Positions 55,794-57,131 of a DNA stretch of 64,000 nucleotides are shown here, one piece after another. This DNA comes from Escherichia coli (GTDB lineage Bacteria > Pseudomonadota > Gammaproteobacteria > Enterobacterales > Enterobacteriaceae): assembly GCF_003790525.1 (NCBI RefSeq), contig NZ_CP033635.1; one strand, written 5' to 3'. The notes below the pieces were generated by a model. That model was not told where the DNA came from. It saw only the letters and a list, made by a program, of their open reading frames with translations, and did no database searches. The stretch's first letter is position 1. The number at the start of each line of letters is the position of its first letter. A program made the position numbers and the translations under genes.

Positions 55794-57131
55794 CATAAGC
55801 GCTAACTTAAGGGTTGTGGTATTACGCCTGATATGATTTAACGTGCCGATGAATTACTCTCACGATAACTGGTCAGCAATTCTGGCCCATATTGGTAAGC
55901 CCGAAGAACTGGATACTTCGGCACGTAATGCCGGGGCTCTAACCCGCCGCCGCGAAATTCGTGATGCTGCAACTCTGCTACGTCTGGGGCTGGCTTACGG
56001 CCCCGGGGGATGTCATTACGTGAAGTCACTGCATGGGCTCAGCTCCATGACGTTGCAACATTATCTGACGTGGCTCTCCTGAAGCGGCTGCGGAATGCCG
56101 CCGACTGGTTTGGCATACTTGCCGCACAAACACTTGCTGTACGCGCCGCAGTTACGGGTTGTACAAGCGGAAAGAGATTGCGTCTTGTCGATGGAACAGC
56201 AATCAGTGCGCCCGGGGGCGGCAGCGCTGAATGGCGACTACATATGGGATATGATCCTCATACCTGTCAGTTCACTGATTTTGAGCTAACCGACAGCAGA
56301 GACGCTGAACGGCTGGACCGATTTGCGCAAACGGCAGACGAGATACGCATTGCTGACCGGGGATTCGGTTCGCGTCCCGAATGTATCCGCTCACTTGCTT
56401 TTGGAGAAGCTGATTATATCGTCCGGGTTCACTGGCGAGGATTGCGCTGGTTAACTGCAGAAGGAATGCGCTTTGACATGATGGGTTTTCTGCGCGGGCT
56501 GGATTGCGGTAAGAACGGTGAAACCACTGTAATGATAGGCAATTCAGGTAATAAAAAAGCCGGAGCTCCCTTTCCGGCACGTCTCATTGCCGTATCACTT
56601 CCTCCCGAAAAAGCATTAATCAGTAAAACCCGACTGCTCAGCGAGAATCGTCGAAAAGGACGAGTAGTTCAGGCGGAAACGCTGGAAGCAGCGGGCCATG
56701 TGCTATTGCTAACATCATTACCGGAAGATGAATATTCAGCAGAGCAAGTGGCTGATTGTTACCGTCTGCGATGGCAAATTGAACTGGCTTTTAAGCGGCT
56801 CAAAAGTTTGCTGCACCTGGATGCTTTGCGTGCAAAGGAACCTGAACTCGCGAAAGCGTGGATATTTGCTAATCTACTCGCCGCATTTTTAATTGACGAC
56901 ATAATCCAGCCATCGCTGGATTTCCCCCCCAGAAGTGCCGGATCCGAAAAGAAGAACTAACTCGTTGTGGAGAATAACAAAAATGGTCATCTGGAGCTTA
57001 CAGGTGGCCATTCGTGGGACAGTATCCCTGACAGCCTACAAAACGCAATTGAAGAACGCGAGGCATCGTCTTAACGAGGCACCGAGGCGTCGCATTCTTC
57101 AGATGGTTCAACCCTTAAGTTAGCGCTTATG
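55794..57131 (+). mobile_element. Insertion sequence IS186 (IS4 family) with terminal inverted repeats and a target-site duplication
   Basis: Left IR cataagcgctaacttaagggttg (55794-55816) and right IR caacccttaagttagcgcttatg (57109-57131); flanking direct repeat gggattgctccc at 55783-55794 and 57131-57142. Confidence 0.9.
55849..56960 (+). pseudogene. insL: IS186 transposase InsL, split by a -1 frameshift in a G-run
   Basis: N-terminal 54 codons (MNYSHDNWSAIL...AYGPGG) and the 316-codon remainder (MSLREVTAWAQ...SEKKN) are in different frames; the shift is at ccccggggga (56001-56010). Confidence 0.75.

What the first reader, a model, noticed from the sequence alone, without database searches (positions are those of the whole stretch)
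55794..57131. IS186 copy with a frameshifted transposase and an intact target-site duplication
The element has matching 23-bp terminal inverted repeats and a flanking direct repeat of about 10-12 bp (gggattgctccc) in a GGGG...CCCC-type target, consistent with IS186 insertion behaviour. The transposase is split into a 54-codon N-terminal piece and a 316-codon remainder in different frames, joined at ccccggggga (56001-56010); one additional G would restore a 370-codon ORF. Either this copy is inactive, or it reflects slippage or a homopolymer sequencing error.
Basis: partly seen in the sequence, partly recalled or inferred. Interest (0 to 1): 0.45.

Follow-up and report, generated by a model that had tools for sequence, protein, structure and literature searches.

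The report
Ordinary IS186 copy, one G short
This is a routine copy of the well-known E. coli insertion sequence IS186 in a known insertion hot spot beside hokE; its transposase gene has five Gs where six are normal, which is either a base-calling slip or a trivial recent mutation, so nothing here is new.

Summary
Window 55794-57131 is a 1338-bp IS186 (RefSeq name: IS421 family, IS4-like). It has perfect 23-bp inverted repeats and a 10-bp target duplication (GGATTGCTCC) in a GGGG-N6-CCCC target. The empty site is present in E. coli SMS-3-5. The element lies between entD and hokE, 21 nt past the hokE stop codon.

The transposase reading frame breaks at a run of five Gs (56005-56009). The two closest genomes, EC332 and 702/18, carry the same insertion with six Gs and an intact 370-aa transposase. 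Among 2767 RefSeq records with this segment, 2658 hold a six-G copy and 79 hold a five-G copy. The missing G is the only indel in 64 kb against three near-identical genomes.

Public five-G copies cluster in particular sequencing batches. They tend to occur in assemblies that also shorten the element's C7 run, which points to homopolymer under-calling. I lean towards an artefact (about 0.55) over a genuine private slippage mutation (about 0.38). Only the raw reads can decide between them. In both cases this is an already-known element with nothing novel. Interest is low.

The parts
55794..57131 (+). Whole IS186 (IS421-type, IS4 family) element; 1338 bp here, 1339 bp in intact copies
   Evidence: 100% identity over the full length to IS186/IS421 copies in many E. 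coli genomes. It differs from the EC332 copy at the same locus by one missing G only.
55794..55816 (+). Left terminal inverted repeat, 23 bp
   Evidence: Exact pattern match; 0 matches expected by chance.
57109..57131 (-). Right terminal inverted repeat, 23 bp, perfect complement of the left one
   Evidence: inverted-repeat pair I1.
55784..55793 (.). Left copy of the 10-bp target-site duplication GGATTGCTCC
   Evidence: The empty site GCGGGGATTGCTCCCCGCA is present in SMS-3-5.
57132..57141 (.). Right copy of the 10-bp target-site duplication
55849..56082 (+). Frameshifted 5' part of the transposase gene: 54 native codons, then 23 out-of-frame codons and a stop (77-aa product)
   Evidence: This exact 77-aa product is on record on 205 public contigs.
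56005..56009 (+). G5 tract (G6 in the intact element), preceded by CCCC at 56001-56004; site of the 1-nt loss
   Evidence: Alignment with EC332 and 702/18, which have 6 G, and with ER1709, which has 5 G. Population counts.
56010..56960 (+). 316-codon remainder of the transposase gene (residues 55-370 of InsL), holding the whole catalytic core
   Evidence: Pfam DDE_Tnp_1 matches residues 53-294, E 1e-26. NCBIfam transpos_IS4_1 scores 124.8 bits against a cut-off of 115.
56760..56804 (+). Y-x2-R-x3-E-x6-K (YREK) signature, YRLRWQIELAFKRLK
   Evidence: Read directly from the translation. That this is the IS4-family signature is from my knowledge of the family literature.
57153..57305 (-). hokE toxin gene (context); the element ends 21 nt beyond its stop codon
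   Evidence: Annotation of the identical locus in EC332; gap computed.
57297..57452 (-). sok antitoxin RNA of the hokE locus (context)
   Evidence: Rfam RF01794, 81.4 bits against a gathering score of 59, E 1e-17.
55063..55683 (+). entD (context); the element starts 110 nt past its stop codon
   Evidence: Annotation of EC332 transferred by coordinates; gap computed.

Best explanation
This is a standard IS186 insertion. IS186 is a DDE (IS4-family) transposase gene flanked by 23-bp inverted repeats.

The element entered the GC-rich hairpin target GCGGGG-N6-CCCCGC, 21 nt downstream of hokE, and duplicated 10 bp of it. The insertion is older than the split from strains EC332 and 702/18, which carry it at the same place and in the same orientation.

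The only abnormality is one missing G in the normal G6 tract. I think this is most likely a homopolymer under-call left in the assembly. On that reading the real element is an intact 1339-bp IS186 with a 370-aa transposase.

Mechanism, inferred from the family and not shown here: the transposase binds the inverted repeats, excises the element, and joins it to staggered cuts 10-11 bp apart in G-run/C-run targets.

If the sequence is taken literally, the copy can only make a 77-aa stub. It would be non-autonomous, but its ends are intact.
For: Identity and anatomy.

Six Gs is the norm. 2658 of 2767 records hold a 6G copy and 79 hold a 5G copy.

The two nearest genomes have 6 G and an intact ORF at this very locus, so the loss is private to this sequence.

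Five-G calls look like a recurrent artefact in public assemblies:
- ER1709 has 5 G in two copies, and one of those also has C7->C6.
- CP013837 has 5 G in both copies examined, together with G5->G4 and C7->C6.
- All five copies read from JBAMEV01 have 5 G. A dead element could not have multiplied like that on its own.
- The listed 5G records are batch-clustered: about 27 of the 60 listed are one 'ET' strain series, and there are also 14EC and FDAARGOS sets.
- At least 18 of the roughly 33 listed non-ET 5G records also appear among the first 60 of the 145 records that shorten the element's C7 tract.
- Variation is length-dependent and biased towards deletion: C7->C6 in 145 records, G6->G5 in 79, G6->G7 in about 5-7.

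A rough rate argument, using published wild-type E. coli mutation rates from memory: the private branch is short (5 SNPs in 64 kb). A real -1 event at one particular G6 tract on that branch would be expected well below 1% of the time.
Against: The window is otherwise clean. Against EC332, 702/18 and SMS-3-5 there is no other indel on the window's side in 64 kb. This holds even though the window has 70 homopolymers of 6 or more bases, and the C7 and G5 tracts inside the element are correct. The window therefore does not come from a generally noisy assembly.

The window's lineage does carry private changes that look real: 5 SNPs, including a nonsense codon in ybdL.

In 702/18, one search found only one place, so IS186 appears to be single-copy there. 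If the same holds for the source genome, short-read polishing should have corrected an error at this site.

The exact 77-aa product is also recorded in collection blocks where every carrying contig is under 5 kb. Contigs that short may come from short-read assemblies, in which this kind of error is unusual.
Confidence: 0.55

Rival explanations
1. The deletion is a genuine private -1 replication-slippage mutation in the G6 tract. The copy is then a transposase pseudogene. It makes a 77-aa N-terminal stub, cannot move by itself, keeps intact ends and duplication, and could move only if another intact IS186 in the cell supplies transposase. A +1 slip in the same tract could revert it.
For: The missing G is the only indel in 64 kb against three near-identical genomes, and every other homopolymer agrees.

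The same branch has five private SNPs, including a stop codon in ybdL, so real unpurged mutations exist on it.

A frameshift in a transposase has no cost to the host.

G/C runs of 6 or more are rare in the window: 3 as sequenced plus this shortened tract, and two of those four lie in the element. This tract is therefore one of the few slippage-prone and selectively free sites.

The 5G product is recorded on 205 contigs from several sources.
Against: Most public 5G calls carry an artefact signature: batch clustering, co-occurrence with C7->C6, and genomes where all copies have 5 G.

No relative shares the 5G allele at this locus, so there is no evidence of inheritance.

The private branch is short, so the prior for a real event at one named tract is low (inference from published rates, from memory).
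Confidence: 0.38
2. The five-G form is functional. One option is low-level -1 ribosomal slippage on GGG-GGA, or RNA-polymerase stuttering; either would rebuild the exact wild-type 370-aa protein. The other is that the tract works as a reversible on/off switch for transposition.
For: A -1 shift at GGG GGA followed by ATG would give ...GPGG-MSLREV..., the wild-type sequence (read).

Five-G copies recur in 79 records.
Against: There is no canonical X XXY YYZ slippery heptamer (direct reading).

96% of records hold the single-ORF 6G form.

Tract variation is mostly in one direction (79 records with 5 G against about 5-7 with 7 G). It tracks assembly batch and errors in another tract of the same element.

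The IS4 family is not known to use recoding (family knowledge, from memory).
Confidence: 0.04
3. The 316-codon ORF is translated from its own ATG (56010). Its product is an N-terminally truncated protein that inhibits IS186 transposase made by other copies, in the way the Tn5 inhibitor protein does.
For: The ORF starts with ATG and keeps the full DDE core.

The truncation removes 54 residues. This is close to the 55 residues missing from the Tn5 inhibitor (from memory).
Against: There is no Shine-Dalgarno sequence at a workable distance; the G run abuts the ATG (direct reading).

No promoter-like site was found in the region.

No experiment or conservation supports an internal start.
Confidence: 0.03

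Closest known systems
IS186 / IS421 of E. coli (IS4 family), e.g. the hokE-entD copy in K-12-lineage and related strains
   Same: The nucleotide sequence is 100% identical over 1338 bp to the hokE-entD copy of ER1709 and to many others. The 23-bp inverted repeats are the same. The target type is the same, with a 10-bp duplication. Even the chromosomal target site is the same, differing by one SNP in the loop.
   Different: Orientation is opposite to the ER1709-type (K-12-like) insertion. About 273 genomes share the window's orientation and about 1673 share the other one. The tract has five Gs instead of six, so there is no 370-codon ORF.
Intact IS186 at the same locus in E. coli EC332 (AP039429) and 702/18 (CP074701)
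   Same: Same insertion site, orientation and duplication. Flanks are identical or nearly so: 9 SNPs in 64 kb against EC332 and 6 against 702/18.
   Different: Those copies have six Gs and an annotated intact 370-aa transposase, WP_001300563.1.
IS1 / IS3-family elements with programmed -1 frameshifting between two ORFs
   Same: There are two consecutive ORFs, and the second is in the -1 frame relative to the first.
   Different: In those families the two-ORF layout is the conserved wild-type state, with an A-rich slippery heptamer. Here it is a rare variant of a normally single ORF and has no slippery heptamer (direct reading).
Tn5/IS50 inhibitor protein (N-terminally truncated transposase)
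   Same: The downstream ORF would encode a transposase lacking about 54 N-terminal residues.
   Different: In Tn5 the inhibitor is made from its own promoter and start in the wild-type element (from memory). Here the truncated ORF exists only because of a frameshift and has no visible translation signals.

Membership tests
IS186/IS421 (IS4 family insertion sequence) | Near-identity of the whole element to known IS186/IS421 copies | tested here: met
   100% identity over 1338 bp to many copies annotated 'IS4-like element IS421 family transposase'. 2146 genomes hold a place covering at least 80% of the element. There is one gap against the EC332 copy.
IS186/IS421 (IS4 family insertion sequence) | 23-bp terminal inverted repeats | tested here: met
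   Perfect 23/23 at 55794-55816 and 57109-57131.
IS186/IS421 (IS4 family insertion sequence) | Target-site duplication of about 10-12 bp in a G-run...C-run target | tested here: met
   10-bp duplication. The empty site GGGG-ATTGCT-CCCC is found in SMS-3-5. Eleven further insertion sites at other loci give 10-11-bp duplications, most in G3-5...C3-5 targets. Variable duplication length at one target is cited from Sengstag et al. 1986 via PMC3562002. GC preference is cited from Chong et al. 1985 via PMC3903273.
IS186/IS421 (IS4 family insertion sequence) | DDE transposase of the IS4 family, including the Y-x2-R-x3-E-x6-K signature | tested here: met
   Pfam DDE_Tnp_1, E 1e-26. NCBIfam transpos_IS4_1 is above its cut-off for both the repaired protein (133.3 bits) and the 316-aa ORF (124.8 bits), cut-off 115. 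YRLRWQIELAFKRLK lies at 56760-56804.
IS186/IS421 (IS4 family insertion sequence) | Single uninterrupted transposase ORF of 370 codons (autonomous element) | tested here: not met
   The frame breaks at the G5 tract, giving ORFs of 77 and 316 codons. As sequenced, the copy is a defective member of the family.
IS186/IS421 (IS4 family insertion sequence) | Transposition activity | not testable with these tools
   Needs a mating-out or papillation assay.
Insertion sequences with programmed -1 frameshifting (IS1, IS3 type) | Two-ORF layout conserved across copies of the element | tested here: not met
   2658 of 2767 records hold the single-ORF 6G form, and only 79 hold a 5G copy.
Insertion sequences with programmed -1 frameshifting (IS1, IS3 type) | Canonical slippery heptamer X XXY YYZ at the ORF overlap | tested here: not met
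   In frame 0 the sequence is GGC CCC GGG GGA TGT. No heptamer of that form is present (direct reading).
Phase-variable (contingency) homopolymer switch | Frequent changes of tract length in both directions among otherwise identical copies, independent of sequencing batch | tested here: not met
   5 G in 79 records and 7 G in about 5-7 records, out of 2767. Five-G calls cluster by project and co-occur with C7->C6 in the same assemblies.

The most novel reading that the evidence does not exclude
The CCCCGGGGG(G) tract at codons 52-54 could be a genuinely hypermutable or leaky site. It would switch IS186 transposase off and on by slippage, or allow low-level -1 recoding that rebuilds the wild-type protein. 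That would give the element a built-in throttle that has so far been dismissed as sequencing noise.
Probability: 0.04. Interest if true: 0.4.

Novelty: already known. Interest (0 to 1): 0.07.

Why it matters
It matters very little biologically. IS186, its inverted repeats, its GC-rich target preference and its presence next to hok genes are long established.

There are three practical points:
- The G6 tract, and even more the C7 tract, of IS186 is often shortened in public 'complete' assemblies. 'Frameshifted' IS186 transposases in annotations should therefore not be read as biology without checking the reads.
- If the loss is real and this is the only copy in the genome, IS186 would be functionally extinct in that strain. 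Its relative 702/18 appears to carry only one copy.
- The insertion, whichever orientation it takes, cuts the hokE transcript 21 nt after the stop codon. This is the previously described way in which chromosomal hok loci are thought to be disabled.

Tried and rejected
1. I tried to read saiSree et al. 2001, which gives the IS186 consensus target (PMC95536). The paper is not held. I tested the target rule directly on 12 distinct insertion sites instead.

2. I searched for a paper describing the 'ET' strain series, to learn its sequencing platform. Nothing relevant came up. The batch argument therefore rests on the accession and strain-name pattern only.

3. I tried to identify the source genome, or sister assemblies, through the window's private FepE L174Q protein. 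No gene with that product is on record. So I could not test whether relatives share the five-G allele.

4. I checked whether the window's five private SNPs sit in Dam or Dcm methylation motifs, which would point to nanopore base-calling errors. One of the five touches a CCTGG site and there is no consistent pattern. This was uninformative.

5. The promoter/terminator scan of the element found 0 promoter-like sites, fewer than in shuffled sequence. It gives no support for an internal transcript for the 316-codon ORF.

6. I first read the gene calls of 160 and 46 aa in loci L011 and L015-L017 as extra frameshifts. Alignment showed that L011, L015, L016 and L017 differ from the intact element by no indel other than the missing G (L015 and L016 also carry one substitution each). 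I corrected this reading.

7. I rejected a naturally two-frame gene. The 6G single-ORF form is overwhelmingly the norm.

Full report
WHAT IS IN THE SEQUENCE

The interval 55794-57131 is bounded by a perfect 23-bp inverted repeat, CATAAGCGCTAACTTAAGGGTTG, at 55794-55816 and, on the other strand, at 57109-57131. These are the only two occurrences in the window, and none is expected by chance.

A 12-nt direct repeat, GGGATTGCTCCC, lies at 55783-55794 and 57131-57142. It overlaps the outermost base of each inverted repeat, so the real duplication is 10 bp: GGATTGCTCC at 55784-55793 and 57132-57141.

I tested this against a genome that lacks the insertion. Removing the 1338-bp element and one 10-bp copy gives exactly the hokE-entD spacer of E. 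coli SMS-3-5...ATATGCGGGGATTGCTCCCCGCACAAC.... The target is therefore GGGG-N6-CCCC, inside GCGGGG...CCCCGC. That sequence folds into an 8-bp hairpin.

Papers held in the library cite IS186 as GC-specific (Chong et al. 1985, via PMC3903273). They also cite it as making duplications of variable length at one target (Sengstag et al. 1986, via PMC3562002).

WHAT THE ELEMENT IS

The 1338 bp are 100% identical to copies in many E. coli genomes. RefSeq annotates all of them as 'IS4-like element IS421 family transposase', and 2146 of 5426 complete genomes hold a near-full-length copy.

The downstream 316-codon ORF (56010-56960) holds a full DDE_Tnp_1 domain (Pfam, E 1e-26). It passes the NCBIfam IS4 transposase model with 124.8 bits against a cut-off of 115. 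It also carries the Y-x2-R-x3-E-x6-K signature at 56760-56804.

The element lies 110 nt past entD (55063-55683) and 21 nt past the stop codon of hokE (57153-57305, minus strand). The sok antisense RNA of that locus is detected at 57297-57452 (Rfam, 81 bits).

THE FRAMESHIFT

The transposase ATG is at 55849. After 54 native codons the sequence reads CCCC GGGGG ATG (56001-56012). The frame then runs into 23 foreign codons and a stop, giving a 77-aa product. The rest of the protein is in the +2 frame from the ATG at 56010.

Strains EC332 and 702/18 carry the same insertion, at the same site, in the same orientation and with the same duplication. They have six Gs and an annotated intact 370-aa protein, WP_001300563.1. 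Adding one G to the window restores 370 codons.

HOW UNUSUAL IS FIVE G?

I probed all complete RefSeq E. coli genomes with 85-87-nt probes. Of 2767 records holding this segment:
- 2658 contain at least one six-G copy.
- 79 contain at least one five-G copy.
- About 5-7 contain a seven-G copy.

As a control I probed the element's C7 tract (56924-56930). It is shortened to C6 in 145 of 2719 records. Tract variation is therefore length-dependent and strongly biased towards deletion.

It is also clustered. About 27 of the 60 listed five-G records belong to one 'ET' strain series, and others to the 14EC and FDAARGOS sets. At least 18 of the roughly 33 remaining listed records reappear among the first 60 records with the C6 error.

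Individual cases point the same way:
- ER1709 has five Gs in two IS186 copies. One of these also has C6, and both are flagged 'frameshifted'.
- CP013837 has five Gs in both copies examined, together with other homopolymer losses.
- All five copies read from assembly JBAMEV01 have five Gs. A dead element could not have achieved that by transposing on its own.

This is the signature of homopolymer under-calling in long-read assemblies, not of biology specific to this tract.

IS THE WINDOW'S MISSING G REAL?

Here the evidence pulls both ways.

I aligned the whole 64-kb window with the homologous regions of EC332, 702/18 and SMS-3-5. The window differs from EC332 by 9 SNPs, from 702/18 by 6 SNPs and from SMS-3-5 by 5 SNPs. 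The window's only indel against any of them is this G; 702/18 also has a one-base loss of its own at 10530.

All 70 homopolymers of six or more bases agree, as do the C7 and G5 tracts inside the element. The window is therefore not from a generally noisy assembly.

On the other hand, the IS is the one place in the window where short-read polishing is weakest, provided the genome holds more than one copy. In one search, EC332 shows two places and 702/18 one.

The five-G allele is private to this sequence. The private branch is short: 5 SNPs in 64 kb. With published wild-type E. coli rates (from memory, not computed here), a real -1 event at one named G6 tract on such a branch is expected well under 1% of the time. 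That is no more than, and probably less than, the residual error rate at this tract in public assemblies.

I could not find the source genome or sister assemblies. The window's private FepE L174Q protein is not on record.

My split is about 0.55 artefact, 0.38 genuine private slippage mutation, and under 0.1 for anything functional.

CONSEQUENCES UNDER EACH READING

If it is an artefact, this is an intact, ordinary IS186.

If it is real, the copy makes a 77-aa stub with no match to any Pfam or NCBIfam model. It cannot move by itself. It keeps intact ends and duplication, so another intact copy could in principle mobilise it, and a +1 slip could revert it.

Two more exotic readings are not supported:
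- A -1 ribosomal slip on GGG-GGA would rebuild the exact wild-type protein. But there is no canonical slippery heptamer, and the two-ORF form is not conserved.
- The 316-codon ORF could in principle give a Tn5-inhibitor-like truncated protein. But the G run abuts its ATG, so there is no usable ribosome-binding spacing, and no promoter-like site was found.

COMPARISON WITH WHAT IS KNOWN, AND NOVELTY

Every feature matches IS186/IS421. The only failed membership feature is the uninterrupted ORF, which makes this, at most, a defective copy of a known element. Nothing is new, and interest is low.

The most useful by-product is a caution. 'Frameshifted' IS186 transposases in public annotations are mostly homopolymer artefacts.

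The side observations on hot-spot occupancy and orientation, the constant 21-nt offset from hok genes, and the private stop codon in ybdL are listed separately.

Noticed in passing
window 55784-55793 / 57132-57141, compared with L001 (ER1709), L007 (SMS-3-5) and L010: The hokE-entD GGGG-N6-CCCC site is a population-level hot spot used in both orientations. Among 5426 complete E. coli genomes it is empty in about 2900. It holds IS186 in the ER1709 (K-12-like) orientation, with the transposase co-directional with hokE, in about 1673. It holds IS186 in the window's opposite orientation in about 273. This implies at least two independent insertions at the same few bases.
   Followed up: partly
window 57132-57152; L001 1480-1500; L016 2925-2945; L010 2925-2945: IS186 sits exactly 21 nt past the hok stop codon at hokE. 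It sits at the same offset at a second hok locus next to a PAPS-reductase gene and a cas3 gene (L016). The shared target GCGGGG-N6-CCCCGC is a hairpin (-15 kcal/mol) in the 3' part of the hok transcript. PMC3562002 reports the same arrangement for hokC/gef in K-12 and says it is thought to disrupt the fold-back-inhibition element.
   Followed up: partly
window 31270 (ybdL, 30653-31813, minus strand): A change private to the window turns codon 182 of the methionine-oxo-acid transaminase gene ybdL into a stop codon (Q182*). EC332, 702/18 and SMS-3-5 all have the intact gene.
   Followed up: partly
window 15217, 31270, 46305, 46369, 47920: These are five SNPs private to the window against three near-identical genomes. 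Three are transversions. Their effects are one nonsense (ybdL), two missense (CitC A74T, FepE L174Q) and two synonymous. The FepE variant is absent from a 15-billion-protein collection. Apart from these five SNPs and IS content, the window is identical to SMS-3-5.
   Followed up: partly
window 56924-56930 (C7 tract inside the transposase gene): This tract is correct in the window. In 145 of 2719 RefSeq records it is shortened to C6, more often than the G6 tract is shortened. One of those records is a re-sequenced K-12 MG1655.
   Followed up: yes
L022 20956-22715 (SMS-3-5), homologous to about window 10220: SMS-3-5 has an IS5-like ISKpn26 element, itself annotated as frameshifted, inserted in pagP. 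The window, EC332 and 702/18 lack it.
   Followed up: no
window 54917-55004: There are small Rfam hits upstream of entD (55063): ES036 sRNA at 44 bits, above its gathering score, and naRNA4 below its gathering score. They lie on opposite strands of one short repeat-like stretch.
   Followed up: no
hits H37, H46, H47, H60-H64 and H147: In several genomes an IS150 (IS3 family) copy is annotated within the stretch matching the entD-IS186-hokE query, in addition to IS186.
   Followed up: no
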